Below are positions 1 to 56,018 of a stretch of DNA of 64,000 bases, one piece after another. Made by a program: the position numbers and the translations under genes. The stretch is taken from positions 4,603 to 68,602 of the forward strand of contig JAKQPK010000075.1 of the NCBI GenBank assembly GCA_029564765.1, given 5' to 3'. The notes under the pieces were generated by a model. The model ran no database searches and was not told the origin of the DNA. It was given only the letters and a program-made list of their open reading frames with translations. Numbering within the stretch: position 1 is the stretch's first letter; every line of letters begins with the position of its first letter. This DNA comes from Candidatus Omnitrophota bacterium. GTDB lineage: Bacteria; Omnitrophota; Gorgyraeia; Zapsychrales; Aceulaceae.

Positions 1-872
<872 letters not shown>

Positions 873-940
873 TAAATTTCAAGCTCGCGTTTCTTAATGT
901 GGTTTGTTTGCAATTACATAATTGTATATTTTTGGATATG

Positions 941-1057
941 TCCAGTGACATTGCCGAAGAGGAAACACCCGTTCCCATACCGAACACGGAAGTTAAGCTC
1001 TCTGGGGTCGATGGTACTACCTTCGCAAGGAGGCGGGAGAGTAGAAAGTTGCTGGGC
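941..1057 (+). rRNA. rrf: 5S rRNA
   Basis: The 5S consensus 'cccataccgaacacggaagttaagc...gatggtac' is present, with terminal helix 'ccagtgac'/'gttgctgg', about 70 nt downstream of the 23S end. Confidence 0.85.
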
Positions 1058-41911: not shown

Positions 41912-41983
41912 GCGCCTGTAGCGTAACGGATAGCGCATTGGCCTCCGGCGCCATACGTGGCCGTTCGATTCGGCCCAGGCGCG
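41912..41983 (+). tRNA. tRNA-Arg (anticodon CCG)
   Basis: Hand-folded cloverleaf: acceptor 'gcgcctg'/'caggcgc', D-arm 'gcgt-aacggata-gcgc', anticodon arm 'ttggc-ctCCGgc-gccat', T-arm 'ggccg-ttcgatt-cggcc', discriminator g. No encoded CCA. Confidence 0.75.
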
Positions 41984-44590: not shown

Positions 44591-47500
44591 ATGATCAGGA
44601 ACAAGAATATTTTTCTTTTGTACGCGTTGTCATTTTTTTTCTTTTTGTCAGGGGCCTGCGGCCTTATTTATGAGATCATCTGGGTGCGAAAGCTTGGCTT
44701 GATCTTTGGCAATACAACCTTGGCGATCAGCACGGTCTTGGCGGTTTTTATGGCTGGCCTTGGACTGGGAAGTCTTTTTTTTGGGCGCTATATCGACCGT
44801 CATAAGGATCCGTTGCGCTGGTATGGCTGGCTTGAAATAGGGATCGGTATATTCTGCCTGGCAACGCCGAGCATCTGGGCCTTTGTTGAAAGAGGCTATG
44901 TTCTTGTCTATCAGGGGCTGAGGCCAGGGTTTTGGCAGTTCAGCCTTATCCGCTTTGCCGTGTCTTTCCTTGTACTCTTTATCCCGACCTTTTTAATGGG
45001 AGGGACTTTACCGGTCGTAACAAAATTTTTAGTCCGTGATTGCCGAGAGACGGCGAAGACAGTCGGATTTCTTTATGGTGTTAATACCTTCGGGGCCTGC
45101 GCAGGTGTTCTTATTTCAAGTTTTTTTGCCATTTATTATTTTGGCATCAATCAAACTGTTTTTATTGCCGCGGCAATTAATATTTTTATTGGGTTAGCCA
45201 CATTTTTTATATTGAAATTAAAGAGGTCTTGGCAGGGGACAGGCAGTATCGAGGAAGATGTTTCAGAAGGTCCTTTGCCCCAGGCCCAGGCCGATATATC
45301 ACCAGGACGCCTGCCTCACGCCTATCTTGTGAAGTTGTTGTTCTTTGTTTTTGCGCTTTCTGGTTTTACATCGATGACATATCAACTGTGCTGGACAAAA
45401 GTTTTGGCGCTGTGTTTGGGTAGTTCGGTTTACTCTTTCGCGATCATGTTGGCAACTTTTCTCGCTGGCTTGTCAATTGGTAGCTTTTTTCTAGGATGGT
45501 TGGCGCGGCATATCAAGATCGGTTATTCTTTGGTCGGGTTAGTGCAGGTCTTGATCGCCTTATTCGTAGCATGGGGCGTGACCATGTTCGATCAGCTTCC
45601 GTTTTATTTTTTACATTTTTTTAGTCTTTGGAAGACGAACCATTTTCTATTTAATTTATCAAAATTCTTGCTCTCTAGCCTGATTATTCTTCCGCCGACG
45701 ATCCTCATCGGCTGCATGTTCGCCATGGTCACGCATATCCTGAATCGATCAGTTGCGACCACCGGCAAAACGATCGGACACGCATACTTGATCAACACCA
45801 TAGGATGTATTTTAGGTTCGGTGTTCTCTGGATTTATTCTTGTTCCAAGCATGGGGATCTACCGAACATTGATCTTAATGGTCGTTCTTAATTTGATCGC
45901 AGGTTCTCTGTTTGTGTTTGTGTCAAGCAAGGGTTGGAGAAAAAGACAGGTCATTGCAACAGCGGGGCTTATTATAGCCGCTGTCCTTGTTTTGCTGCAG
46001 GCGCGCCCTTGGTCTAAAGGCCTTTTGACAACGAATATCGCTATTGATCCAAAAACTTATTTAGGTCATAGCAAATACGAGATCCTTAGCAGCACCGCTC
46101 AAAATGAGTTGCTGTATTATAAAGAAGGCCTAAGCGGTACAGTTGCCGTTAAGCGTCATCATGAAGTGCTTTCTCTCGCGATCAATGCCAATATTGACGC
46201 CTCAAATGGAACAGACATGTATACTCAGCTTTTGATCGGGCATTTGCCAAGTCTTTTTGCGGATAAGCATGATAAGGCCTTGGCCATCGGCATGGGAAGC
46301 GCTGTCACGGTTGCTGCCTTAGCTGCATATCCCTATAAGGAGATCCACTGTGTTGAGCTTGAGCAGGGAGTCGTGGAAGCAGCCAAGTTTTTTGCAAAAG
46401 AGAATCGTGGTGTTCTTGATGACCCTCGCGTTAAAAGTATCGTAAATGATGGGCGAAACCATTTGCTAGTGGAAGATGTTTTGTATGATGTTATTGTCTC
46501 AGAACCCTCTAGTCCCTGGATGGCTGGCGTGGCAAATTTGTTTACGGTCGAGCAATTTCGCCTTATCCAGAAACGCTTAGCGCCTCAGGGGGTCGTTTGC
46601 CAATGGCTCAACACCTATAGCATGTCATCAGATAATATCCAGATGATCATCAAGACATTTCGCAGCGTCTTTGCGCACACGAGCTTGTGGCAGACTATCG
46701 GCGCAGACCTGTTGTTGATCGGGTCAGATCATGAAATCGTGTATGATCTTCAGAAGATAGACCAGAGGATCCAGACTAATGACTTGCTGAAAAAAGATCT
46801 AGGATCGTTCAAGGTCTTTAATGCGGCGGGACTATTGTCTTGTTTTATGCTGACCAGCGAAGAGCTTGGGCGGGTGGGCGCGAATGCGCAGCTCAACACT
46901 GACAACTTGCCATTATTAGAATATTCTGCTCCCCTTAATTTGTACGGATACGAACAGGTTGTTTCTCAGAATCTTCAGATGATCAACTCTTATCGAGTAA
47001 GTCGTTATCCGAAGATCATGAATGGGCCCCGGTCGGCACAGGAGAAGGTAATATTCCATAATGCGATCGCAAGGGCGGCGCTTGAAAAAGGGGATTTTAC
47101 AACAGCCACAGCTGAGATAGCTTTGTCAAATAAAGAGCAGGCTTTAAATCCGGGATCAGTTCTTAACTATGGTATTTTTCAGTTTCACACCAGAAAGATC
47201 CCTGAAGCGATCGCGAATCTTGAAAGTTACATAAGCCAAGACAGTGGCGATCCGGACGCTCAATTTTATCTTGCCAGAGCGTATATGGCCAAAGGAGAGA
47301 TCGATAAGGCCAGCATGCTGTATGCGAAGGTGGTCTCTATGGCCCCGGATAATTATGACTACCTCATCACTTATGGCCAGGCCTTGATTCAAAAAGGCGA
47401 GATTGACAAAGCGATCGAGATCATACAGAGGGCAATCGACACAAAAGGGTTAACCTTTTCCAATGGTCTTTTGTTGGCCAATGTTCTTTTTGCTGGAAGA

Positions 47501-47794
47501 CAGATGGAAAAAGCGATCGCCATGATCGAGCATGTGATCGGTCTTTATCCGCACTCCTTTGGGGGTTACGACACTCTTGCGAGAATGTTTGAATTTGCTG
47601 GTGCGTTACCTGAGGCGGTCGCGATATATCAGAGGGCATCGCGCATGATCCCATTTGATGCCAGAGTGTATTATGCATTGTCGACCTTGTACGAGAAGAC
47701 CAATGATAAGCGTTCTGCGCGCATTATGGCGAAACTATATAAATTTTATGATAACGCACCTAAAATAGGTGGGAGTTCTCAGAAACAGAAGTAG
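44591..47794 (+). CDS. Fused membrane protein with duplicated polytopic N-terminal halves, a spermidine-synthase-like (polyamine aminopropyltransferase fold) domain and C-terminal TPR repeats
   Basis: Two copies of 'SG(A/F)...Y(E/Q)(I/L)xW(V/T)(R/K)' membrane modules. 'LAIGMGSAVTVAALAAYP...IHCVELEQGVVEAAKFF...YDVIVSEPSSPW'. TPR-like C-terminal 300 aa. Confidence 0.7.
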   Translation: MIRNKNIFLLYALSFFFFLSGACGLIYEIIWVRKLGLIFGNTTLAISTVLAVFMAGLGLGSLFFGRYIDRHKDPLRWYGWLEIGIGIFCLATPSIWAFVERGYVLVYQGLRPGFWQFSLIRFAVSFLVLFIPTFLMGGTLPVVTKFLVRDCRETAKTVGFLYGVNTFGACAGVLISSFFAIYYFGINQTVFIAAAINIFIGLATFFILKLKRSWQGTGSIEEDVSEGPLPQAQADISPGRLPHAYLVKLLFFVFALSGFTSMTYQLCWTKVLALCLGSSVYSFAIMLATFLAGLSIGSFFLGWLARHIKIGYSLVGLVQVLIALFVAWGVTMFDQLPFYFLHFFSLWKTNHFLFNLSKFLLSSLIILPPTILIGCMFAMVTHILNRSVATTGKTIGHAYLINTIGCILGSVFSGFILVPSMGIYRTLILMVVLNLIAGSLFVFVSSKGWRKRQVIATAGLIIAAVLVLLQARPWSKGLLTTNIAIDPKTYLGHSKYEILSSTAQNELLYYKEGLSGTVAVKRHHEVLSLAINANIDASNGTDMYTQLLIGHLPSLFADKHDKALAIGMGSAVTVAALAAYPYKEIHCVELEQGVVEAAKFFAKENRGVLDDPRVKSIVNDGRNHLLVEDVLYDVIVSEPSSPWMAGVANLFTVEQFRLIQKRLAPQGVVCQWLNTYSMSSDNIQMIIKTFRSVFAHTSLWQTIGADLLLIGSDHEIVYDLQKIDQRIQTNDLLKKDLGSFKVFNAAGLLSCFMLTSEELGRVGANAQLNTDNLPLLEYSAPLNLYGYEQVVSQNLQMINSYRVSRYPKIMNGPRSAQEKVIFHNAIARAALEKGDFTTATAEIALSNKEQALNPGSVLNYGIFQFHTRKIPEAIANLESYISQDSGDPDAQFYLARAYMAKGEIDKASMLYAKVVSMAPDNYDYLITYGQALIQKGEIDKAIEIIQRAIDTKGLTFSNGLLLANVLFAGRQMEKAIAMIEHVIGLYPHSFGGYDTLARMFEFAGALPEAVAIYQRASRMIPFDARVYYALSTLYEKTNDKRSARIMAKLYKFYDNAPKIGGSSQKQK

Positions 47795-48958: not shown

Positions 48959-50341
48959 ATGACTATCAACAATAATAATAGGATCGTTATCTTTTTTTTC
49001 TTACTGGTGATCGTTTTCTTTAGCTTTTGCCGGGTAAGCGAATCCGCTTTTGACCTTAGCGTCAGCCCACTTCGGGGGGGCAGCAGCCTGAGATTTGGTC
49101 GTGTTACTTCTGCTCAGACAGCAAATCAAGAAGTTCGTCTACGCATCAACACTAACCAAGGGGTTCAGTATCAGGTATTCCAATCTATGATCGAGCCGCT
49201 GATCAGCGAAAAAGGAGAGCCTTTGCGGGCTTCAGCATTAAAAACATATTCCATCACAGGCTCCAATGCTTTGGGAACGCTTTATTTGCAGCAAATGGGT
49301 TCCATGAAAAATATCGACGATCTTGTCTACACATCGAATGGCGCTGGACAAAGTGATTCTTTTACCATGGTTTATGCCATCGATCCTGCGCAAATCGATG
49401 TTCCAGGCCGCTTTTCTGGAAAGATCTTGTATACGCTTAGACCTGTCTCTGGGGGAAGTCAGATCCAAGCCTATTTGGATGTTTTTCTTGAGATACCCCA
49501 AGACTTTAAGGTTCAAACTCAGGCATCTTCAGGGTTAGACACAGTACGTCTGAATACAAGAGGTGCCGCAGGGCTGGAAGGTTATTTCAATATTTCTTTT
49601 TCTGGCAATCTAGGCGACAGTCTTGTGATCTATCAAGATATTGATCGCTTGCCGGTCAATGATCGCAATGAAGAAATCCAAAAAGACATGCTGAAATTCT
49701 TTGTAAGTACGAGCCAGGAGGGGGCCGCGAAGTACCCCAGTCCCACAAACTTTGCGAAGCGTCTGATGATCTACACATCAAAAAATACAAGCGATACGGT
49801 GAATGTGAGATTTTCGTTAGACCAAGAAGTCGCGTCTAAACAAAAGGCAGGTGTTTATCGTGGGCAAGTGAAGTATTTCCTTGAAAAACAAGGCATCGCA
49901 CAAACTGTTTTGCTAAATTTAGAGATTACGATCGATCCTGTTTTTCAGCTTGATGTCAGTTTTCCTGAAGGGCGTGAGCCGCGCTTTGACGATGTTCTGC
50001 CCAATAGCCCACCCCAGGTCAAAGAAGCGATCATTGATATCAAGACGAATCTAGGAAAACCTTATATGATCATTCAGAAAATCGCATCCCCACTTGCAAA
50101 TGTCAAGGGTGCTGTTTTCAAGCAGGAATTCTTTGATATGAAGGTTGAAAATATGAGCGGGCAGGGTAAAAGTAGTTTTGAGGACTTTACGGTTGTCCCG
50201 AAAGAGGAGAGAACCATCTTCCAGTCGGACGCCAAGGGGGCGCCTTGCAGGGTCAGGGTGTTATATCGTTTGAAACCTTATCCGGGAATGGAGCCTGGTA
50301 ATTACTTAACATCGATCGTTTATTCATTGGGCGAAATATAG
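48959..50341 (+). CDS. Secreted two-domain beta-rich protein (possible fibre adhesin or tip component). First gene of a putative surface-fibre cluster
   Basis: Signal peptide. Two ~200-aa halves that end similarly ('YTLRPVSGGSQIQAYLDVFLEI' / 'YRLKPYPGMEPGNYLTSIVYSLGEI'). AT-rich upstream region. Confidence 0.45.
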   Translation: MTINNNNRIVIFFFLLVIVFFSFCRVSESAFDLSVSPLRGGSSLRFGRVTSAQTANQEVRLRINTNQGVQYQVFQSMIEPLISEKGEPLRASALKTYSITGSNALGTLYLQQMGSMKNIDDLVYTSNGAGQSDSFTMVYAIDPAQIDVPGRFSGKILYTLRPVSGGSQIQAYLDVFLEIPQDFKVQTQASSGLDTVRLNTRGAAGLEGYFNISFSGNLGDSLVIYQDIDRLPVNDRNEEIQKDMLKFFVSTSQEGAAKYPSPTNFAKRLMIYTSKNTSDTVNVRFSLDQEVASKQKAGVYRGQVKYFLEKQGIAQTVLLNLEITIDPVFQLDVSFPEGREPRFDDVLPNSPPQVKEAIIDIKTNLGKPYMIIQKIASPLANVKGAVFKQEFFDMKVENMSGQGKSSFEDFTVVPKEERTIFQSDAKGAPCRVRVLYRLKPYPGMEPGNYLTSIVYSLGEI

Positions 50342-50412
50342 AAAGGAGGAAGAGCCACGGAACTAAAAGCTGTTTGTTAAACTAAAAAAAATAAAACAAA
50401 AGGAGAGTTAAA

Positions 50413-51030
50413 ATGAGAAAAATAACCTTGATCATAACGTTGCTGTTAGGCGTTATTTTGATCGCTGCGCCAGTTAGTTTTGCGCAAGTGAATGCAACAA
50501 AGACATTCACGGTATCTGCGACGATCCCTGGAGCGACAGGCATTTCGATTAACGCTTACAATGTGACTGGAAATAATAATCCAGTTCTTGTTTCTGGCCT
50601 TAACCTAAGCTTTGACCCGCTCACGTATGATCCGGTAAATTATATCTACATGCCAGATCATTATTTCTACATTGATGTGCAAGCGACTGGCGGTCCTGGC
50701 ACTCCAACAACCACCTTGACCTTTACCCAGGGCTCAAATCCTAACGCCGCTAATAGCGGTAACGGCCTTGGATGGAAGGGTGCGCTGACATACGCCAAGG
50801 TAGATTCTCTTGGAGCTGTTAATTTGTTGCCCACACATCCTAAAGAGCTTTTCAAGGATGTTAACGGGGATGTCGTTTTGCCGGCTGAGCTTGGAGCAGG
50901 CAGTTTTTTTAGGGCATATTTAGGTCTGAACGTTGATAGTACAATGCCTGCAGGCGGTGAAATGTTTACCTTGAACGATGCCGCTGGTGTTTATGACGGG
51001 ACATTATTAGTCACAGCAACCATACCGTAA
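50413..51030 (+). CDS. Pilin-like secreted subunit (candidate major fibre subunit)
   Basis: Signal peptide 'LIAAPVSFAQV'. About 180-aa mature region rich in T/S/G/N. Strong RBS 'aaaaggagagttaaaATG'. Followed by a perfect 16-bp hairpin. Confidence 0.45.
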   Translation: MRKITLIITLLLGVILIAAPVSFAQVNATKTFTVSATIPGATGISINAYNVTGNNNPVLVSGLNLSFDPLTYDPVNYIYMPDHYFYIDVQATGGPGTPTTTLTFTQGSNPNAANSGNGLGWKGALTYAKVDSLGAVNLLPTHPKELFKDVNGDVVLPAELGAGSFFRAYLGLNVDSTMPAGGEMFTLNDAAGVYDGTLLVTATIP

Positions 51031-51060
51031 AACGACCCTGTTGTCATTTGCCGATATTGT

Positions 51061-51097
51061 CAAGACTTGCTGAGAAAGAACTTCTCAGCAAGTCTTG
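51061..51097 (+). promoter_or_regulatory. Intercistronic perfect stem-loop (16-bp stem) between the pilin-like gene and the chaperone-like gene
   Basis: 'caagacttgctgagaa-agaac-ttctcagcaagtcttg', then RBS 'gaagagagg' and the ATG at 51112. It resembles the mRNA-stabilising or attenuating hairpins found after major-subunit genes in chaperone-usher operons. Confidence 0.55.
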
Positions 51098-51111
51098 AAG
51101 AGAGGCCTTGC

Positions 51112-51924
51112 ATGAAAAGAATCTTATTGTTCTTGGGGCTATGCCTTGCTTTCTTGTCTTTGATATCCTTAAAAGAAGCTTCTGCTCAATTGCTTCTTGA
51201 AACCGGAAAGATCGCGCTTTCTCTAAAGCCTGGAGAAACTGCTGTTGGCGAAATAAAGATTAACAATATTACGGATAAGGAAGTAGCCGTTAAGGCTTAT
51301 TGGCAGGATTTTGTTTATACACCCCCGTTTGACGGTAACAAAAAATTCTTTCCCCCCGCGACGACTCCGCTCTCTTGTTCACAATGGGTTAGCTTTAGCC
51401 CCCAGGATTTCCAGCTCAAGCCATTTGAGAAAAAGACCATTTCTTACAATATTAAATTCCCTGCATCAGCCCAGGGAGGATATTATGGAGTTTTATTTTT
51501 TGAGAATCATAGCGCGCAAAAAGATTCAAAAACAGGCGTCAGCGTGATCGCTAGAGTTGGATGTCTTTTCTTTCTTGAGACAGCCGCAAGCCCCAAGGAT
51601 GCCAAGGTGCGAGATGTGAAGGCTGTTGGAAATCGTATTGAAGGGGATATTCAAAATAATAGTCAAATCATATTGATACCCAAAGGGATTTTTTATATTA
51701 TGAATAAAGAGGGGCTGATCGCTGATCGAGGTGAGTTAGGCGCTTTTTATTTGCCCCCAGGTCAAGATGTCCCGTTCTTTATTAACGTTTCGGATAAGGT
51801 TTCGCTAGGGACATATACCATGGTCCTTACTTTTGATCTGGGCGATGGCGACAGCTTGGTCCAGGAAGTAGATTTTACGAAAACCGAAAGATCAAATCTT
51901 GTGATTCTTCAAGTGCGGGACTAA
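51112..51924 (+). CDS. Secreted PapD-like (pili-assembly chaperone N-domain / DUF916-like) protein
   Basis: Signal peptide 'MKRILLFLGLCLAFLSLISLKEASA'. 'IALSLKPGETAVGEIKINNITDKEVAVKAYWQDF' parallels the PapD/FimC strand motif '...LVQSWI'. The ORF-track start at 51067 is an extension. Confidence 0.45.
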   Translation: MKRILLFLGLCLAFLSLISLKEASAQLLLETGKIALSLKPGETAVGEIKINNITDKEVAVKAYWQDFVYTPPFDGNKKFFPPATTPLSCSQWVSFSPQDFQLKPFEKKTISYNIKFPASAQGGYYGVLFFENHSAQKDSKTGVSVIARVGCLFFLETAASPKDAKVRDVKAVGNRIEGDIQNNSQIILIPKGIFYIMNKEGLIADRGELGAFYLPPGQDVPFFINVSDKVSLGTYTMVLTFDLGDGDSLVQEVDFTKTERSNLVILQVRD

Positions 51925-51939
51925 TGAAACGAATATTTT

Positions 51940-54900
51940 ATGCACAAAAAAATAATTTTCGTTGCCGCAGGATTAGCCTTCCTATTTCTTTCTTGCCTTG
52001 CCAGCACATCACGTGCTGAAGAGCTCGTTTCTTATGATTTTTTTGAAAACAGAGGGATGCTCGAATTAGCGCAAGGGCGCTATGCGGACGCGATTGTCTT
52101 CTTTAACGAAGCCTTAGCGCTCAATCCGCAAGCCAAGAATTCGTTACGCTTTCTAAACGCTATTAGACGGCTTTTGGAAGGACGCTACGGAGTTATTGAA
52201 TTTCGCGAAAAGTCCCAAGGCTTAGAGTGTGAAGCTGCAGCCGTATGGACAGCAGCCAGTCAGGGACAGACGGTGGATGTAGCCCTGCCGGAATCTTCGA
52301 GCGAGGATGATTTTCTTTCTTCAGTTTCTTTCCAAGCAGATCCTGTCTATGTTAGTGAAGGCCGTGTGGCAGATAGGCCAGAAGACCCCGCACAGTCAAG
52401 AAAGCAAGATATTTCTGCCGCACTTGACATCATTGAGTCAGCTGCCAGACAGAAAGTTTCTGCAGAGAAAGCAGCGACTATTGATGGTAAAGAAAGCAAT
52501 GCTCAGCATAAGACGCTTGTGGCAACATCAAGCAACCCTGTTGCTGAAGATGATACCAAAAAAGACCTTTCCCAGTCGAAGACTGATGTTTCAGATACGA
52601 TATATTTAAATGATGAGCTTTGGAGCTTGCCCGTAAAACCTAGACTTGAGATCGAGATTGATCATGCGATCATTCTAGAGGGGGATAATGTTGAACGGTT
52701 TTTGGTCGTAACCCCCGGATTTATTAGCATTAAAAAAATTGATCGTAATAAAATCCTTCTTATGGCCGAAAAAAGGGGGTCCACGATCATACTTGTTTGG
52801 GATGCGCATGGACGTTGGTCCTTTAATGCTGAAGTTATCTTTCCATCTCAGAAAGCAAGTGCAAAGACCGCTCCGGTGCTTCAAGAAGAGTCCAACCCGT
52901 TTCGTTTTACGTATGCAGCAGATTGGAGCCAGTTTTACTCCAGTGAAGATGCGGATATTTTTGAGCGGCGGTCGCTGATCTTTACACAGCGCTTGATGCT
53001 GGATGGAGAAACGCCTTATGGTGACATTGATACATCTGTGATATTTAATAAGTTCGACGCAACGACCAAGGCCACGGGGTACACCATTGGCTTAAGCGAT
53101 GGCTCGATCGGTCCGCTGTCGGATTTTCGCTTACGCGGCTTTGATGCGCGTAAAACTTTTTCACCTCTTACCCTGTCTTCCAAATATTTTCGCGGTATTC
53201 TTTTTGAAAAAGATTTCTTTGATGAAAACATGGAAGCGACATTTTTGTGGGGTCGTGATCGTTCAGCGTACGGTTATCTGCTTCCAGGCGCTGTTGATAA
53301 AAGGGATTTCTTTGTGACAGGGGGGCGTGTACATCTTTTTCCTAAGGGAAAGCATCAGTATGCTTTTAATTATACGGCGAGCGATGGAAACGACCGTCCG
53401 TCGTATGTCAAGAACACGGTCATGTCCGTGGAAACATTTCAAGATTTTGGAAAGATGGACTTTGCGGCTGAAATCGCATACGGCGATAAGGATCTTGCCC
53501 GCACAGCGAATTTTGGTTTTGAGCTAAACCCTCAGATGGATTTTTCAATTAATCTTCGAGATATTGATAAGAATTATGCAACGGCTACCTCTAGCGTTGG
53601 AAGCCAGGGAGAAGCGGGGAGTATCCTTTCTTTTGTTTGGCGCCCTGAAAGTTTTAGTTTTGATTCGACCGTTGATATTTATCGTAATCGATACATCTTT
53701 AACCCTCAAAATGAAGCAGCTATTAACTATGATTGGTCGACCTCCATACGCAAAACGTTGACCAATCTATCCTGGTGGAACACGAATATTTATTATTCGG
53801 ATACTCCGGGGCTTGTTTCGCCCCACAGAGATTTCCGGATCTTTAACACTTATTCTAAGAATTTTAAGATCACGGATATAAAAATGTTGTCGCTCCATTT
53901 TGGCCAATCCTACCAAAAAAGCCGGTACGCATATTCACCCGCCTCTGAGTTTGATCGCGTTGGTCTTTCAGCTGGCGCGCGTGTTCCTCTTTTGAGGGAT
54001 TTCACTTATTTCTGTAATTATGAATATTCCTGGGTCCAAGAGGTCATGACGGGAAAGAGCATACAGCCCAATGTGCTTACCACAGGATTCGATTTCTCAA
54101 GGAACATCACGCAATATATTTCGGGGAATGTAAATTTATCCTATCGTAATGAGCAGAACGCCCAAGGGACCTTGAGCTTTTTGGCGGGAGAAGACAGCGC
54201 CGCGGCCACGCTTGGTCTTTTTTATCGTCCCAGCTCGGACCTTGACCTTTATTTTGAGGGGACTGTTAGGGAGGTTTGGCCGGATGATCAAACGCGTGAT
54301 AATTTCTTAGAGGGAGATTTTCGCATGGGAGTCCGCGTCGCTTGGGATATGCCTTTTCGATGGAACCCCCAAGGATATGCTGGCGGCGTTGTTTTTAAGG
54401 ACCTTAACGGTAACGGCATTCAAGATCCTGGAGAAGACGGTATCCCGGATATCGTGATCAAGGCTGGAAAATCGCGCGCGGTCACTGGCTCTCAAGGATC
54501 GTATTTGGCCAAGGTTAGCGGCAAGAAAGTTCAAGTTGGTATTGATTTTGATAGCGTTCCTGCAGGATATGTTTTTACGACCTCACCCAGCCAGCATATT
54601 ACAATTGCTCCTGATAAGGTTGTTAAGATCAACTTTGGCCTTACGACGCGTTCGGAAATTTATGGCGTTGCTTTTGTGGATAACAATCAAAACGGGAAAC
54701 CCGATGGCCGCGAGCCAACGATCGCTGATATCACGTTGATCCTTGATGGCAAGCAGAGAACAACAACCGATTTTGAAGGTTCTTATTCGTTCTCTGGCAT
54801 TACAGCTGGAAAACATGTTCTTTCGATCGATGTCAATTCAATACCGATCGAATATTTACCAGCAGTTAAAGTGCAAAGCGAGATCGAGGTCCAGGAGGGT

Positions 54901-54984
54901 ACAACGTATATCTTTCACATTCCTTTAAGAAAAAATATTAGCGTGTCAAACGACAAGAAGATCCCTCAAGAGAAGGTCGAGTAA
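51940..54984 (+). CDS. Large secreted/outer-membrane protein with N-terminal TPR, a central beta-rich region, and C-terminal SdrD-B/Cna-B-type (Ca-binding Ig-like) repeats. Candidate usher or platform of the fibre cluster
   Basis: Signal peptide. TPR 'LAQGRYADAIVFFNEALALNPQ'. Barrel-like alternating hydrophobic stretches in the middle. C-terminal 'FKDLNGNGIQDPGEDGIPDIVIKAG' and 'FVDNNQNGKPDGREPTIADITLILDG'. Confidence 0.5.
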   Translation: MHKKIIFVAAGLAFLFLSCLASTSRAEELVSYDFFENRGMLELAQGRYADAIVFFNEALALNPQAKNSLRFLNAIRRLLEGRYGVIEFREKSQGLECEAAAVWTAASQGQTVDVALPESSSEDDFLSSVSFQADPVYVSEGRVADRPEDPAQSRKQDISAALDIIESAARQKVSAEKAATIDGKESNAQHKTLVATSSNPVAEDDTKKDLSQSKTDVSDTIYLNDELWSLPVKPRLEIEIDHAIILEGDNVERFLVVTPGFISIKKIDRNKILLMAEKRGSTIILVWDAHGRWSFNAEVIFPSQKASAKTAPVLQEESNPFRFTYAADWSQFYSSEDADIFERRSLIFTQRLMLDGETPYGDIDTSVIFNKFDATTKATGYTIGLSDGSIGPLSDFRLRGFDARKTFSPLTLSSKYFRGILFEKDFFDENMEATFLWGRDRSAYGYLLPGAVDKRDFFVTGGRVHLFPKGKHQYAFNYTASDGNDRPSYVKNTVMSVETFQDFGKMDFAAEIAYGDKDLARTANFGFELNPQMDFSINLRDIDKNYATATSSVGSQGEAGSILSFVWRPESFSFDSTVDIYRNRYIFNPQNEAAINYDWSTSIRKTLTNLSWWNTNIYYSDTPGLVSPHRDFRIFNTYSKNFKITDIKMLSLHFGQSYQKSRYAYSPASEFDRVGLSAGARVPLLRDFTYFCNYEYSWVQEVMTGKSIQPNVLTTGFDFSRNITQYISGNVNLSYRNEQNAQGTLSFLAGEDSAAATLGLFYRPSSDLDLYFEGTVREVWPDDQTRDNFLEGDFRMGVRVAWDMPFRWNPQGYAGGVVFKDLNGNGIQDPGEDGIPDIVIKAGKSRAVTGSQGSYLAKVSGKKVQVGIDFDSVPAGYVFTTSPSQHITIAPDKVVKINFGLTTRSEIYGVAFVDNNQNGKPDGREPTIADITLILDGKQRTTTDFEGSYSFSGITAGKHVLSIDVNSIPIEYLPAVKVQSEIEVQEGTTYIFHIPLRKNISVSNDKKIPQEKVE

Positions 54985-54990
54985 GGGACC

Positions 54991-55239
54991 TTATTTTGCA
55001 ACGACTGTTTTGACCAAGACTTTTTCGTTATTGCGAATATCTTGCTCCATGGCCACCTGAAAGTTATTCGTGTTAGGCTGTATTCGTGCTTCAGGCTGAA
55101 TGGACGCATGATAAACAGCGGGGATCGTCACAGAAACTTTGTAGCTTTTACTAGCTCCTTGGGCAGCTTCTAGTGGTGAGTAGAAAAGAACGCTGATGAT
55201 CAGCAGGCTAGTGATCTTTTTCAAAGAAAAGTTTTTCAT
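54991..55239 (-). CDS. Small secreted hypothetical protein (82 aa), convergent with the upstream gene
   Basis: Signal peptide. RBS 'aaaggagcacaaaATG' on the minus strand. Confidence 0.4.
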   Translation of the reverse strand: MKNFSLKKITSLLIISVLFYSPLEAAQGASKSYKVSVTIPAVYHASIQPEARIQPNTNNFQVAMEQDIRNNEKVLVKTVVAK

Positions 55240-55255
55240 TTTGTGCTCCTTTCAT

Positions 55256-55294
55256 AAAAAAAGCCCTTTGACGAAAATCAAAGGGCTTTTTAAT
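55256..55294. terminator. Bidirectional intrinsic terminator-like hairpin
   Basis: 'aaaaagccctttga-cgaaaa-tcaaagggcttttt'. On the minus strand it lies directly 5' of the RBS of the 82-aa gene, so it may terminate a minus-strand transcript coming from the 55.3-55.7 kb non-coding region. Confidence 0.6.
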
Positions 55295-55753
55295 TACGTA
55301 ATCAACATCGAATCATTTTATGATTCACGGCAACCAGACAACCTTTTACTGGCTAACGTCAGCAGTCAGGCTCACGGCTTTGTGCCCTACACTTTCGAGT
55401 AGTTTACCTTTCAGTCTTATGAAAGAGCGAATCACAACATCACCAATAAGAATATAGCATGGTAGAAAGCGTTTTTCAACGTAGGGGTAATAATATAACG
55501 CTTTCTTTAGATTTCATAACAATATATATTACAGGTATTTACGTTATATCAAGAGAAGAATTATATAAATTTTATGCAAAAAGTCTTATGAGCCGCAATT
55601 TGTTCTCTAAATCAGTAATTTTTCGGAAACAGTTAATTGCGCATTCTAAGATTGACTCCCGCTTTATAAAATAGTATCATATCGTACTTAAAAGTTGTTT
55701 CGGGGAAATCTACAGGCCAATTATCCGGAAATAAGCCTGATGTTCTTTTTTGA

Positions 55754-55928: not shown

Positions 55929-56018
55929 GGGAGAAGTGGCAGAGTGGTTGAATGCGGCGGTCTTGAAAACCGTTAGGGGCCTTGCGGTCCCTCGAGGGTT
56001 CGAATCCTTCCTTCTCCG
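55929..56018 (+). tRNA. tRNA-Ser (anticodon TGA), type II with long variable arm
   Basis: Acceptor 'ggagaag'/'cttctcc', anticodon arm 'gcggt-ctTGAaa-accgt', long variable arm, T-arm 'gaggg-ttcgaat-ccttc', discriminator g. Confidence 0.85.

What the first reader, a model, noticed from the sequence alone, without database searches (positions are those of the whole stretch)
48959..54984. Candidate chaperone/usher-like surface-fibre gene cluster with a perfect intercistronic hairpin
Four consecutive same-strand genes all encode signal-peptide proteins. The first is a two-domain beta-rich protein. The second is a ~180-aa pilin-like subunit with a very strong RBS. A perfect 16-bp stem-loop (51061-51097) follows it, directly before the third gene, which encodes a protein whose N-terminus parallels the PapD/FimC chaperone strand motif ('VAVKAYWQDF' versus 'LVQSWI'). 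The fourth is a ~1,000-aa protein with TPR, a barrel-like middle and Cna-B/SdrD-B-type C-terminal repeats. A hairpin after the major-subunit gene is a hallmark of pap/fim operons, where it sets differential mRNA stability. The putative usher has an atypical architecture, so this may be a divergent fibre-assembly system.
Basis: inference. Interest (0 to 1): 0.62.

Follow-up and report, generated by a model that had tools for sequence, protein, structure and literature searches.

The report
Omnitrophota chaperone-assisted fibre gene cluster
A gene cluster conserved across the uncultured phylum Omnitrophota encodes a pilus-type periplasmic chaperone, secreted beta-sandwich subunits, a large outer-membrane protein of a new family and a c-di-GMP-riboswitch-controlled mini-subunit, so it looks like an undescribed relative of chaperone-usher, WxL and CPR 'Pam' fibre systems.

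Summary
Four same-strand genes for signal-peptide proteins (g1-g4) and a perfect 17-bp hairpin between g2 and g3 are present.

- g3 is a PapD-superfamily two-Ig-domain chaperone (AF2 pLDDT 94). By profile comparison its closest relatives are the membrane-anchored chaperones of CPR Pam-like operons. It also resembles Gram-positive WxLIP/DUF916 and, more distantly, chaperone-usher (CU) chaperones. Unlike Pam and WxLIP proteins, it is soluble.
- g4 has TPR, a pilus-N domain, a ~500-aa barrel-like core and two SdrD-B domains. It shows no detectable homology to ushers, and its core forms a closed family.
- g2 is a beta-sandwich with no significant PDB match. Its conserved N-terminal extension 'TFTVSATIP' is unstructured in the model.
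- g1 has three tandem homologous domains, not two.

Outside the stated coordinates lies a fifth, convergent gene, g5 (82 aa). It carries the same N-terminal motif as g2. A c-di-GMP-I riboswitch plus terminator sits in front of it, in the window and in about 52 related loci.

The five-gene synteny recurs in 53 of 71 loci, and g1-g4 in 63. A stable hairpin after g2 is a family-wide positional feature (p = 3e-12).

Best reading: a chaperone-dependent, probably donor-strand-type surface fibre or adhesin system. This is a new variant of a known kind. Polymerisation and outer-membrane translocation are inferred, not shown.

The parts
48959..50341 (+). g1: secreted 460-aa protein with three tandem homologous ~140-aa beta-rich (Ig-like) domains; candidate tip or adhesin subunit
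   Evidence: ORF. Internal repeats by hhalign: D1-D3 99.3%, D1-D2 99.2%, D2-D3 96.3%. Nine of 57 family members give sub-threshold NCBIfam CPR_Pam_pilin_C hits. Only weak antibody-VH-like hits in the PDB. Present in 63 of 71 loci.
50413..51030 (+). g2: secreted 205-aa beta-sandwich protein with a conserved N-terminal extension (KTFTVSATIPGATG) and a strong ribosome-binding site; candidate major subunit
   Evidence: AF2 pLDDT 89.7; residues 22-42 are coil with pLDDT 61-72, and the rest forms 11 strands. No significant PDB or BFVD fold match. No Pfam hit in the family. Extra paralogues in 10 loci. Family alignment.
51060..51098 (+). Perfect 17-bp stem-loop (5-nt loop) between the g2 stop codon and the g3 ribosome-binding site; no U-tract
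   Evidence: All eight close relatives have a long stem here (12-23 consecutive pairs) with different arm sequences. Family-wide, 47 of 80 g2-downstream regions carry a helix of 10 bp or more, against 46 of 266 after other genes; Fisher p = 3e-12.
51112..51924 (+). g3: soluble periplasmic two-Ig-domain chaperone of the PapD superfamily (DUF916/WxLIP/Pam-chaperone branch)
   Evidence: AF2 pLDDT 94.3, pTM 0.83. Foldseek PDB. hhalign 99.5% against CPR Pam-like chaperones and 83.7% against E. coli CU chaperones. EcpB E = 0.0096 by profile. DUF916 sub-threshold in 40 of 54 members. No C-terminal TM helix in 0 of 54.
51940..54984 (+). g4: 1014-aa envelope protein: signal peptide, TPR (about 29-67), variable low-complexity linker, T2SS-T3SS_pil_N domain (235-292), ~500-aa conserved beta-rich core (about 315-810; putative outer-membrane barrel), two SdrD_B/CarboxypepD_reg Ig-like domains (about 815-1000)
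   Evidence: Pfam on 44 members: SdrD_B 44/44, pil_N 42/44, TPR_2 27/44, weak OMP_b-brl 4/44, no Usher among the 25 families listed. hhalign against ushers 0.2%. Core region is a closed family of 202 representatives. Amphipathic-strand density at least that of the FimD barrel.
54991..55239 (-). g5: convergent 82-aa secreted mini-protein (about 57 aa mature) whose N-terminus 'SYKVSVTIPA' copies the g2 N-terminal extension; candidate strand-only cap, terminator or regulator subunit
   Evidence: ORF. Conserved in position and orientation in 53 of 71 loci. hhalign g2 against g5 92% over the signal peptide plus motif. Consensus 'sykvSVTIPa'.
55251..55291 (-). Intrinsic terminator (14-bp perfect stem, 6-nt loop, U7) between the riboswitch aptamer and the g5 ribosome-binding site: the expression platform
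   Evidence: I13.
55326..55418 (-). c-di-GMP-I (GEMM-I) riboswitch aptamer in the g5 leader
   Evidence: Rfam RF01051: 57.3 bits against a gathering score of 35; E = 1.9e-9 to 5.7e-11. Rfam hits above gathering score at the same position in L006, L008, L016, L018 and L025. The covariance model built here finds it upstream of g5 in 51 further loci at E <= 1e-3.
55451..55479 (-). Sigma-70-like promoter match (TTGAAA-17-TATATT with extended TG) upstream of the riboswitch
   Evidence: Consensus scan only; function not tested.

Best explanation
The locus encodes a chaperone-dependent surface fibre or adhesin assembly system characteristic of Omnitrophota.

Proposed mechanism:
1. All five proteins are exported by Sec.
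2. The soluble periplasmic chaperone g3 binds the beta-sandwich subunits by strand complementation. Clients are g2 (major subunit), g1 (three Ig-like domains, probably distal or adhesive) and possibly g5.
3. Chaperone-subunit complexes dock on the periplasmic modules of g4 (TPR, pilus-N domain, two C-terminal Ig-like domains). The beta-rich core of g4 provides the route across the outer membrane.
4. The conserved N-terminal extension of an incoming subunit (TFTVSATIP, alternating hydrophobic residues) replaces the chaperone strand. This is donor-strand exchange, and it polymerises g2.
5. g5 has the donor-like strand but no acceptor domain, so it would cap, terminate or anchor the fibre, or compete for the groove. 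Its dosage is set by c-di-GMP through a GEMM-I riboswitch with a terminator platform.
6. The conserved hairpin after g2 sets the ratio of g1-g2 to g3-g4 expression, by partial termination or by protecting the 3' end. This is the role of the element after papA and fimA.

Shown: exported proteins, chaperone fold and homology, synteny, hairpin conservation, riboswitch.
Inferred: client binding, strand exchange, polymerisation, g4 as barrel and translocon, the role of g5, the function of the hairpin.
For: Chaperone:
- AF2 pLDDT 94.3.
- Foldseek top hits are WxLIP bound to WxL (9i25, E = 9e-14), then CU chaperones in complex with subunits.
- hhalign 99.5% (E = 2.6e-23, 216 columns) against CPR Pam-like chaperones.
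- hhalign 83.7% against E. coli FimC, YadV, EcpB, EcpE, SfmC and YehC.
- EcpB is the best PDB sequence hit.

Precedent: WxLIP and PamC/D are both reported to complete their clients' folds with a donated strand (PMC10599100; bioRxiv 10.64898/2026.03.03.709456).

Subunits:
- The N-terminal 20 residues of mature g2 include several of the most conserved positions of the protein (T31, F32, T33, S35, A36, P39), although the segment's mean conservation equals that of the core. They are left unstructured by AF2.
- The same motif heads g5 and, more loosely, g1.
- g2 paralogue expansions occur in 10 loci.

Synteny: 63 of 71 loci carry g1-g4 and 53 carry all five, with unrelated flanks.

g4: the pilus-N domain is present in 42 of 44 members, and periplasmic-type modules sit at both ends of a beta-rich core.

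Regulation:
- Hairpin enrichment after g2, p = 3e-12, with arm sequences that differ between relatives.
- c-di-GMP-I riboswitch before g5 in about 52 loci.
Against: - No structure prediction of g4 could be run. The barrel is inferred only from period-2 amphipathicity and four weak OMP_b-brl hits.
- g4 has no detectable homology to ushers.
- The g2 fold has no significant match to any pilin. Best hits are the TasA fibre (E = 0.014) and CfaE (E = 0.025). It has no match to WxL or SCPU.
- No complex prediction was possible, so chaperone-client binding and donor-strand exchange are untested.
- The unstructured N-terminus of g2 could simply be a flexible linker after the signal peptide.
- Two-Ig-domain PapD-like folds also occur in non-chaperone proteins such as RbmA, CEP192 and the Vpr fibril.
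- The ON or OFF sense of the riboswitch is undetermined.
Confidence: 0.6

Rival explanations
1. A non-polymerising envelope complex of the WxL/WxLIP kind. Here g3 is a scaffold that binds and stabilises g2 and g1 as monomeric surface or periplasmic proteins, g4 is their outer-membrane anchor or exporter, and no fibre forms.
For: - The best fold match of g3 is WxLIP bound to a WxL protein.
- DUF916 is the top Pfam family for 40 of 54 g3 members.
- WxL clusters also pair one Ig-like binder with a small and a large client (PMC10599100).
- g2 has no pilin-like fold match.
Against: - g2 and g1 have no WxL domain, by Pfam or by fold.
- g3 lacks the membrane anchor that defines WxLIP.
- The shared, conserved, unstructured N-terminal strand on g2 and g5 and the g2 paralogue arrays fit polymerising subunits better.
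- The homologous CPR system makes filaments.
Confidence: 0.2
2. A co-regulated set of envelope proteins with no chaperone-client relationship. For example, g4 could be an independent porin or adhesin with Ig-like domains, and g1-g3 unrelated secreted Ig-like proteins.
For: - Ig-like two-domain folds are common, and Foldseek also lists RbmA, CEP192 and ciliary proteins.
- No direct interaction evidence exists.
- The g4 core matches nothing known.
Against: - Gene order and orientation are invariant over some 60 loci despite unrelated flanks.
- g3 is specifically homologous over both domains to chaperones that sit in pilin operons in CPR and to CU chaperones.
- An N-terminal motif is shared among g2, g5 and, more loosely, g1.
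- The g4 core occurs in only this one architecture.
Confidence: 0.1
3. A bona fide but very divergent classical, alternate or archaic chaperone-usher pilus operon, with g4 a true usher homologue and g2 an SCPU/Csu-type pilin.
For: - The operon logic is subunit, hairpin, chaperone, then a large outer-membrane protein with N- and C-terminal periplasmic domains.
- JGI named one homologue 'P pilus assembly chaperone PapD'.
- One g4 member gave a weak CooC_C hit, E = 0.018.
- The g2 C-terminal motif GxYxGTLLVTAT recalls SCPU last strands (from memory only).
Against: - No Usher Pfam hit among the families listed for 44 members, and hhalign against ushers gives 0.2%.
- No SCPU or fimbrial Pfam hit in 26 g2 members even at E <= 10.
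- No CsuA/B among the 50 Foldseek PDB hits listed, and no other CU pilin except weak matches to the tip adhesins CfaE and CupB6.
- g3 is closer to the DUF916 and Pam chaperones than to PapD_N.
Confidence: 0.05
4. The hairpin is only an operon boundary, that is, a terminator separating a g1-g2 transcript from an independently promoted g3-g4 transcript. On this reading it is not a differential-stability or attenuation element.
For: Thirteen of 46 strong hairpins after g2 in related loci have U-rich tails, like intrinsic terminators.
Against: - In the window and its seven closest relatives no U-tract follows the stem, and the g3 ribosome-binding site starts 2-10 nt after it.
- The g2-g3 gap is only 81 nt and contains no promoter match.
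- Many relatives have gaps of 25 nt or less.
Confidence: 0.25

Closest known systems
Pam pili of Candidate Phyla Radiation bacteria (PamA/B pilins, PamC/D chaperones; Troman et al., bioRxiv 10.64898/2026.03.03.709456)
   Same: The g3 family is homologous over both domains to the chaperone-like proteins of Pam-like operons recovered in L085-L087 (hhalign 99.5%, E = 2.6e-23). Both chaperone sets give sub-threshold DUF916 hits. Both systems have several secreted beta-sandwich subunits in one operon, and the last-strand motif GxYxGT...AT is shared. Nine of 57 g1 members touch the CPR_Pam_pilin_C model. Pam pili assemble by donor-strand exchange.
   Different: Pam chaperones are anchored by a C-terminal TM helix, whereas g3 is soluble. 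Pam has no outer-membrane component; here a ~1000-aa g4 is invariably present. g1 and g2 are not detectably homologous to the Pam-like pilins (hhalign 11% or less). The Pam preprint does not mention a riboswitch. [quoted passage not shown]
Chaperone-usher pili (Pap/Fim; class 5 CFA/I; archaic Csu/CupE)
   Same: Two-Ig-domain periplasmic chaperone fold. Profile alignment to FimC-type chaperones includes the 'xxSWxE' and G1-strand regions. Gene order is subunit, chaperone, large outer-membrane protein. A stem-loop follows the major-subunit gene; E. coli K-12 annotates fimR2 directly after fimA. g4 has periplasmic modules at both ends of a large beta-rich core, analogous to the usher NTD and CTD1/2.
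   Different: No usher homology. No PapD_N Pfam hit among the 25 families listed. By the profile alignment, the K112-equivalent position in the G1 strand is an invariant Gly. g2 is not a recognisable Ig-like pilin and has no cysteines.
WxL / WxLIP (DUF916-DUF3324) surface-protein clusters of Firmicutes
   Same: WxLIP structures 9i25 and 9i1y are the best fold matches of g3 (E = 1e-13). DUF916 is its best Pfam family. [quoted passage not shown] The cluster pairs a small and a large client.
   Different: No WxL domain in g1 or g2. g3 lacks the TM helix. The host is a diderm and has an outer-membrane component. DUF916 scores are below Pfam's gathering threshold.
c-di-GMP-I (GEMM-I) riboswitches in front of pilus, adhesin and motility genes
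   Same: Canonical aptamer above Rfam's gathering score, with a terminator expression platform. From general knowledge, GEMM riboswitches commonly control surface-appendage genes.
   Different: Here it controls only a tiny convergent gene whose product mimics the N-terminal strand of the putative major subunit. This arrangement was not found in the papers searched. The ON or OFF sense is unknown.
TasA-type donor-strand fibres (Bacillus biofilm matrix)
   Same: The best, non-significant, PDB fold hit of g2 is the TasA fibre 8aur (E = 0.014, prob 0.92). From general knowledge, TasA polymerises by donating an N-terminal strand.
   Different: TM-score is only 0.32-0.35. There is no sequence similarity, and the TasA system has no chaperone or outer-membrane component.

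Membership tests
Chaperone-usher pathway | Periplasmic two-domain Ig-like PapD-type chaperone | tested here: met
   AF2 pLDDT 94.3. Foldseek matches CfaA, Caf1M, SafB, CsuC, FimC and PapD at E = 2e-9 to 5e-7. hhalign 83.7% against six E. coli chaperones. EcpB E = 0.0096. Met at the fold and superfamily level only: PapD_N is not among the 25 Pfam families listed.
Chaperone-usher pathway | Outer-membrane usher (Pfam Usher PF00577; 24-strand barrel with plug, NTD, CTD1/2) | tested here: not met
   No Usher among the 25 Pfam families listed for 44 g4 members. hhalign against FimD, HtrE, EcpC, SfmD and YehB gives 0.2%. PDB profile search returns only TPR and SdrD.
Chaperone-usher pathway | Subunits with an incomplete Ig fold plus an N-terminal donor strand | tested here: inconclusive
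   g2 has a conserved N-terminal extension with alternating hydrophobic residues that AF2 leaves unstructured. However, its core has no significant fold match to CU pilins: CfaE E = 0.025, CupB6 E = 0.19. hhalign against E. coli pilins gives 15%.
Pam pilus system (CPR) | PapD-like chaperone homologous to PamC/D | tested here: met
   hhalign of the g3 family against chaperone-like proteins of Pam-like operons L085-L087: 99.5%, E = 2.6e-23, 216 columns. Those operons carry sub-threshold PamT and Pam_pilin_C hits.
Pam pilus system (CPR) | Chaperone anchored by a C-terminal transmembrane helix; no outer-membrane component | tested here: not met
   None of 54 g3 members has a C-terminal hydrophobic run, whereas the CPR proteins do. 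g4 is always present.
Pam pilus system (CPR) | Two-domain pilins with the Pam pilin C-terminal domain (NCBIfam NF058581) | tested here: not met
   g1: 9 of 57 members hit at E = 5e-4 or weaker; the window protein scores 17 bits, far below the 55-bit cut-off. g2: no hit for the window protein. hhalign of g1 and g2 against the Pam-like pilins gives 11% or less.
WxL cluster (Firmicutes) | WxLIP = DUF916 + DUF3324 + TM helix | tested here: inconclusive
   Best fold match is 9i25/9i1y. DUF916 is sub-threshold in 40 of 54 members (best 9.4e-6), and DUF3324 in 2 of 54. No TM helix.
WxL cluster (Firmicutes) | Client proteins carrying a WxL domain | tested here: not met
   No WxL Pfam hit in the 26 g2 members, nor among the 25 families listed for the 57 g1 members. 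No WxL chain among the Foldseek hits of g2.
c-di-GMP-I riboswitch (RF01051) | Aptamer scoring above Rfam's gathering threshold, in a 5' leader | tested here: met
   57.3 bits against 35 over the full model 1-87, 87 nt upstream of the g5 ATG, followed by a terminator. Same position in five of eight relatives by Rfam and in 51 further loci by the covariance model built here. Ligand binding cannot be tested here.
Outer-membrane beta-barrel protein | Transmembrane beta-barrel | tested here: inconclusive
   Residues 315-810 contain 18-22 period-2 amphipathic segments, against 13-20 in the FimD-family barrel with the same detector, and none in the g4 linker. Weak OMP_b-brl hits in 4 of 44 members. 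The core ends in 'GVRVAWDMPF', which resembles a barrel-closing strand. No 3D model.

The most novel reading that the evidence does not exclude
This is a previously undescribed branch of donor-strand fibre systems, conserved across much of Omnitrophota: the diderm counterpart of CPR Pam pili and Firmicute WxL complexes. It would use a new, non-usher family of outer-membrane translocon (pilus-N domain, ~500-aa barrel, two Ig-like domains). A c-di-GMP-riboswitch-controlled 'strand-only' mini-subunit would set fibre initiation, termination or length. It would imply that PapD-type strand-donating chaperones predate and are independent of ushers, having been coupled to different envelope solutions in monoderms, CPR and diderms.
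Probability: 0.4. Interest if true: 0.8.

Novelty: new variant of a known kind. Interest (0 to 1): 0.67.

Why it matters
Omnitrophota are ultra-small, uncultured bacteria thought to live attached to hosts. Their attachment has so far been attributed to type IV and Tad pili and to giant ORFs (PMC10066038). Neither that survey nor a 2026 complete-genome survey mentions chaperone, usher or riboswitch.

A conserved, second-messenger-controlled fibre or adhesin system would be a new candidate for host contact in this phylum.

The locus also links three systems described separately: chaperone-usher pili, WxL/WxLIP complexes and CPR Pam pili. The link is one chaperone lineage. The locus pairs that chaperone with an outer-membrane protein unrelated to ushers, which makes the origin of the chaperone-usher pathway more testable.

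The riboswitch-controlled mini-subunit suggests a simple, testable way of tuning fibre assembly through the dosage of a strand-only cap.

Tried and rejected
The 26-sequence alignment was used instead.
2. g4 structure prediction: not possible.
4. Usher hypothesis for g4: rejected at the sequence level.
5. SCPU/Csu pilin idea for g2 and g1, which rested on a motif resemblance recalled from memory: no support from Pfam, the PDB profile search or Foldseek.
6. WxL-domain idea for g2: no support.
7. g2 against the g1 domains and against the Pam-like pilins by hhalign: not significant beyond the 13-17-residue last-strand motif.
8. The first crude barrel predictors found few strands. After calibration on the FimD family, the density is usher-like, but this is only suggestive.
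9. Hairpin as a dispersed repeat or REP element: rejected, because it is unique in the window.
10. Hairpin detection with loops of 10 nt or less undercounted conserved stems with long loops. It was redone with MFE helices. A few of those hits lie in the g3 coding sequence, in the 'LLLEEGK' region.
11. ON or OFF sense of the riboswitch: aptamer and terminator coexist in the MFE structure, and a 12-bp helix can pair the leader with the ribosome-binding site. No clear antiterminator was found, so this is left undetermined.
12. BFVD search of g2: nothing significant.


Full report
OBSERVATION

The four + strand ORFs are present:
- g1, 48959-50341, 460 aa
- g2, 50413-51030, 205 aa
- g3, 51112-51924, 270 aa
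- g4, 51940-54984, 1014 aa

All four begin with a typical Sec signal sequence. Its arms are 51060-51076 and 51082-51098, giving 17 perfect pairs and a 5-nt loop. MFE is -34.3 kcal/mol, z = -4.56, and none of 200 shuffles folds as well. It is the longest perfect short-range inverted repeat in the 64-kb window and is not a dispersed repeat. No U-tract follows it, and the g3 ribosome-binding site (GAGAGG) starts a few bases after it. g2 has an AAGGAG site about 7 nt before its ATG.

SOURCE AND CONSERVATION

The same contig occurs in several public metagenomes. Homologues are named Candidatus Omnitrophota. A scan of one genome per GTDB species with the g3 alignment returned 72 loci, nearly all Omnitrophota MAGs. 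Some carry other bin labels, such as 'uncultured Planctomycetales', one 'Elulimicrobium' and one 'Methanosarcinales'.

ORFs were classified with profile HMMs built here:
- Of 71 non-redundant loci, 63 carry g1-g2-g3-g4 in this order.
- 53 also carry a fifth, convergent small gene (g5) directly after g4.
- Of the 11 loci with g4 but no g5, 8 are cut by a contig end.
- Flanking genes differ between loci, so this is a self-contained module.
- Ten loci have extra g2 paralogues. One MAG has two intact copies (L061, L063), and another has an intact and a decayed copy (L055, L084).

g3 IS A PapD-SUPERFAMILY CHAPERONE

- AF2 with 54 homologues gives pLDDT 94.3 and pTM 0.83: a signal helix followed by two beta-sandwich domains.
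- Foldseek against the PDB ranks WxLIP of Enterococcus faecium first (9i25_C bound to a long WxL protein, and 9i1y; E = 9e-14 to 2e-12). It also lists many CU chaperones, mostly solved in complex with subunits: CfaA, Caf1M, SafB, FimC, CsuC, PapD, YadV and CupB2 (E = 2e-9 to 5e-7; TM up to 0.63 on the target).
- By sequence, the family profile's best PDB hit is the fimbrial chaperone EcpB (E = 0.0096).
- hhalign against six E. coli K-12 CU chaperones (fetched) gives 83.7% probability and E = 8e-6 over 190 columns.
- That alignment pairs 'VKAYWQDF' with FimC 'LIQSWVENAD', and 'RVGCLFFLE' with the G1-strand motif 'SRIKLYYRP'.
- Pfam's best family is WxLIP_PGBD (DUF916), below threshold, in 40 of 54 members. 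PapD_N is not among the 25 families listed.

The closest relatives by profile comparison turned up by accident. Three loci caught by the same peptide pattern (L085-L087; CPR-like small genomes) are operons of 355-390-aa secreted proteins alternating with 302-322-aa g3-like proteins that end in a transmembrane helix. They give sub-threshold NCBIfam hits to CPR_pilus_PamT and CPR_Pam_pilin_C. The g3 family aligns to these chaperone-like proteins with 99.5% probability, E = 2.6e-23, over 216 columns.

A 2026 preprint describes this 'Pam' pilus system of CPR bacteria (10.64898/2026.03.03.709456). It has Ig-like pilins polymerised by donor-strand exchange and membrane-anchored PapD-like chaperones PamC/D, with no trans-envelope machine. 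[quoted passage not shown] Unlike both, none of 54 g3 proteins has a C-terminal hydrophobic anchor. g3 is therefore a soluble periplasmic protein, as expected in a diderm.

g2

- AF2 with 26 homologues gives pLDDT 89.7.
- Residues 22-42, the first 20 residues of the mature protein ('AQVNATKTFTVSATIPGATG'), are coil with pLDDT 61-72. Residues 43-205 form an 11-strand beta-sandwich with pLDDT around 90-98.
- This extension contains several of the most conserved positions in the family: T31, F32, T33, S35, A36 and P39. Its hydrophobic residues alternate (F-x-V-x-A-x-I). Averaged over the segment, its conservation equals that of the core (0.49 in both).
- The C-terminal strand 'GxYxGTLxxTAT' is the other conserved block.
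- The core has no significant structural neighbour. Best PDB hits are the TasA fibre (E = 0.014), CfaE (0.025) and CupB6 (0.19), with TM 0.35 or less. Best BFVD hit is E = 0.006.
- There are no Pfam hits in 26 members even at E <= 10 and no PDB sequence hit.

g2 is thus compatible with a donor-strand subunit (conserved, unpacked N-terminal strand). It is not a recognisable CU, SCPU or WxL protein.

g1

g1 consists of three tandem homologous domains of about 140 aa: 28-180, 181-322 and 323-460. hhalign gives 99.3%, 99.2% and 96.3%. Each domain starts with an 'xLSVxP...SLRFG' strand and ends with 'GxYxGxxxY'. Nine of 57 family members give weak hits to the CPR_Pam_pilin_C model at the end of domain 2. 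PDB profile hits are only non-significant antibody VH matches. These are probably Ig-like domains, but the fold was not modelled.

g4

- Across 44 members, Pfam finds SdrD_B in 44, T2SS-T3SS_pil_N in 42 (best 2.8e-9), CarboxypepD_reg in 39, TPR_2 in 27 and weak OMP_b-brl in 4. No Usher appears among the 25 families listed.
- hhalign against FimD, HtrE, EcpC, SfmD and YehB gives 0.2%.
- The PDB profile search finds only TPR and SdrD.
- The conserved core (residues 306-815) was searched by phmmer against 1.84 billion representatives. It finds only 202 proteins at E <= 1e-3, of which 136 are at E <= 1e-30. The full-length hits are mostly about 900-1100 aa with the core at the same relative position. 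This is a closed family.
- A period-2 amphipathicity detector finds 18-22 segments in 315-810. The same detector finds 13-20 in the FimD-family barrel and none in the g4 linker.
- The core ends in 'GVRVAWDMPF', which resembles a barrel-closing strand.

I infer, but have not shown, a large outer-membrane barrel with periplasmic modules at both termini. This layout is analogous to an usher but not homologous to one.

- g5 (54991-55239, - strand, 82 aa) ends 6 nt from the g4 stop codon.
- After its signal peptide it begins 'SYKVSVTIPA'. The family consensus 'sykvSVTIPa' matches the g2 extension 'tFtvSAtvP'.
- The mature protein is only about 57 aa, too small for an acceptor domain.
- Its leader holds a c-di-GMP-I riboswitch aptamer: RF01051, 55418-55326, 57.3 bits against a gathering score of 35.
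- The aptamer is followed by a textbook terminator (14-bp stem, U7; about 55291-55251), then GAAAGGAG and the ATG. A sigma-70-like match lies upstream.
- Rfam finds the aptamer at the same place in 5 of 8 relatives tested.
- A covariance model built from these six finds it on the g5 strand just upstream of g5 in 51 further loci at E <= 1e-3, and in two more weakly.
- Terminator-type platforms are evident in only about a third of loci.
- I could not decide whether the switch is ON or OFF.

THE HAIRPIN IS CONSERVED AS A STRUCTURE, NOT AS A SEQUENCE

The window and seven close relatives (59-91% g3 identity: L016, L088, L091, L089, L090, L018, L017) all fold into a long stem of 12-23 consecutive pairs. 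The stem lies between the g2 stop codon and the g3 ribosome-binding site. Arm sequences differ and loops are variable.

Family-wide, the 120 nt after g2-type genes contain an uninterrupted helix of 10 bp or more in 47 of 80 cases. After g1, g3, g4 or g5 the figure is 46 of 266 (Fisher p = 3e-12). Median MFE is -33.5 kcal/mol against -21 to -27. Thirteen of 46 strong hairpins have U-rich tails. A few of the hits lie in the g3 coding region.

The analogy to papA and fimA is reasonable. E. coli K-12 annotates the sRNA fimR2 directly after fimA. The function here, whether attenuation or 3'-end protection, is inferred.

MECHANISM

I commit to a chaperone-dependent, donor-strand-type surface fibre or adhesin system, with confidence about 0.6.
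1. g3 caps g2, g1 and possibly g5 in the periplasm.
2. g4 receives the complexes and conducts the polymer across the outer membrane.
3. The N-terminal extension of g2 mediates subunit-subunit linkage.
4. g5, a strand without an acceptor domain, caps, terminates or anchors the fibre, or competes for the groove. Its dosage is set by c-di-GMP.
5. The hairpin sets the subunit-to-machinery expression ratio.

Shown: export signals, chaperone fold and homology, synteny, hairpin conservation and the riboswitch. Everything about binding, exchange, translocation and polymerisation is inferred.

Rivals:
- A non-polymerising WxL-like complex (0.2).
- Unrelated co-regulated envelope proteins (0.1).
- A cryptic true chaperone-usher operon (0.05).

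COMPARISON WITH KNOWN SYSTEMS AND NOVELTY

The system works like a chaperone-usher pathway and shares its chaperone lineage with the Pam and WxL systems. It fails a membership test for each:
- No usher, so not CU.
- No membrane-anchored chaperone and no Pam pilin domain above threshold, so not Pam.
- No WxL domain, so not a WxL cluster.

Two Omnitrophota genome surveys do not mention chaperone, usher or riboswitch. The Pam preprint does not mention Omnitrophota or WxL. No paper linking Omnitrophota to such a system was found in the held library.

I rate it a new variant of a known kind, with interest 0.67.

Noticed in passing
window 55326-55418 (-), 55251-55291 (-), 54991-55239 (-): A c-di-GMP-I riboswitch plus intrinsic terminator controls a convergent 82-aa gene (g5). 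The product's N-terminus copies the g2 N-terminal strand. The arrangement is conserved in about 52 related loci. It is now part of the main finding, but it lay outside the coordinates given.
   Followed up: yes
L085:5797-9957, L086:6857-11044, L087:95-4214: The chaperone peptide pattern [YH]YGVLFFE also retrieved CPR-type operons. These alternate 355-390-aa secreted pilin-like proteins, ending in ...GxYTGTVxLVATPTY, with TM-anchored g3 homologues. They appear to be divergent Pam-pilus operons. Two of them sit in MAGs labelled 'uncultured Gammaproteobacteria', including a 1.6-Mb chromosome, so the label is probably wrong.
   Followed up: partly
window 54984-54991: g4 and g5 converge with only 6 nt between their stop codons. 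Across the family, strong hairpins are uncommon after either gene. Riboswitch-gated g5 transcripts could therefore read antisense into g4. A possible antisense or interference layer was not examined.
   Followed up: no
L084 (same MAG as L055); L061 and L063 (same MAG): One Omnitrophota MAG carries an intact cluster and a second copy fragmented into many short ORFs that still keeps g5 and the riboswitch. Another MAG has two intact clusters.
   Followed up: partly
L068:2523-12220; L065, L066: Some loci have arrays of g2 paralogues. L065 and L066 each have three upstream of g1. L068 has repeated g2-g3 pairs, which suggests subunit diversification with dedicated chaperones.
   Followed up: no
window 48959-50341 (g1 residues ~96-134 and ~387-439): The g1 family profile gives repeated, non-significant hits to antibody VH framework 3. 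'TLsgSNssGTLYLQn..ls..dQLlYtS' aligns with '[28 protein letters not shown]'. This hints at a V-set-like Ig topology.
   Followed up: no
window 51160-51200 region of g3 and homologous positions in L053, L062, L067, L069, L078: The conserved N-terminal g3 peptide 'QLLLEEGKV' is encoded by a near-palindromic sequence (…CTTTTCCTTGAAGAAGGAAAAG…) in several relatives. This produces helices inside the coding region that inflate hairpin counts.
   Followed up: partly
window 1-1057; 41912-41983; 55930-56018: The 3' end of a 23S rRNA gene and a 5S rRNA gene lie at the start of the window, followed by a 14-bp perfect hairpin at 1067-1096. There is a tRNA at 41912. A tRNA-Ser(TGA) lies just beyond the g5 promoter region.
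   Followed up: no
window 44591-47794: A 1067-aa fused MFS/spermidine-synthase-like protein with a long C-terminal TPR region lies upstream. It is conserved next to the cluster only in the closest relatives (L001-L004), so it is probably not part of the system.
   Followed up: partly
L042 (DYOU01000007.1): A complete cluster, including the putative outer-membrane protein g4 and the riboswitch, sits in a MAG named Candidatus Elulimicrobium. NCBI files that genus under the Patescibacteria group. Either the taxonomy or the binning, or the assumption that this lineage lacks an outer membrane, needs checking.
   Followed up: no
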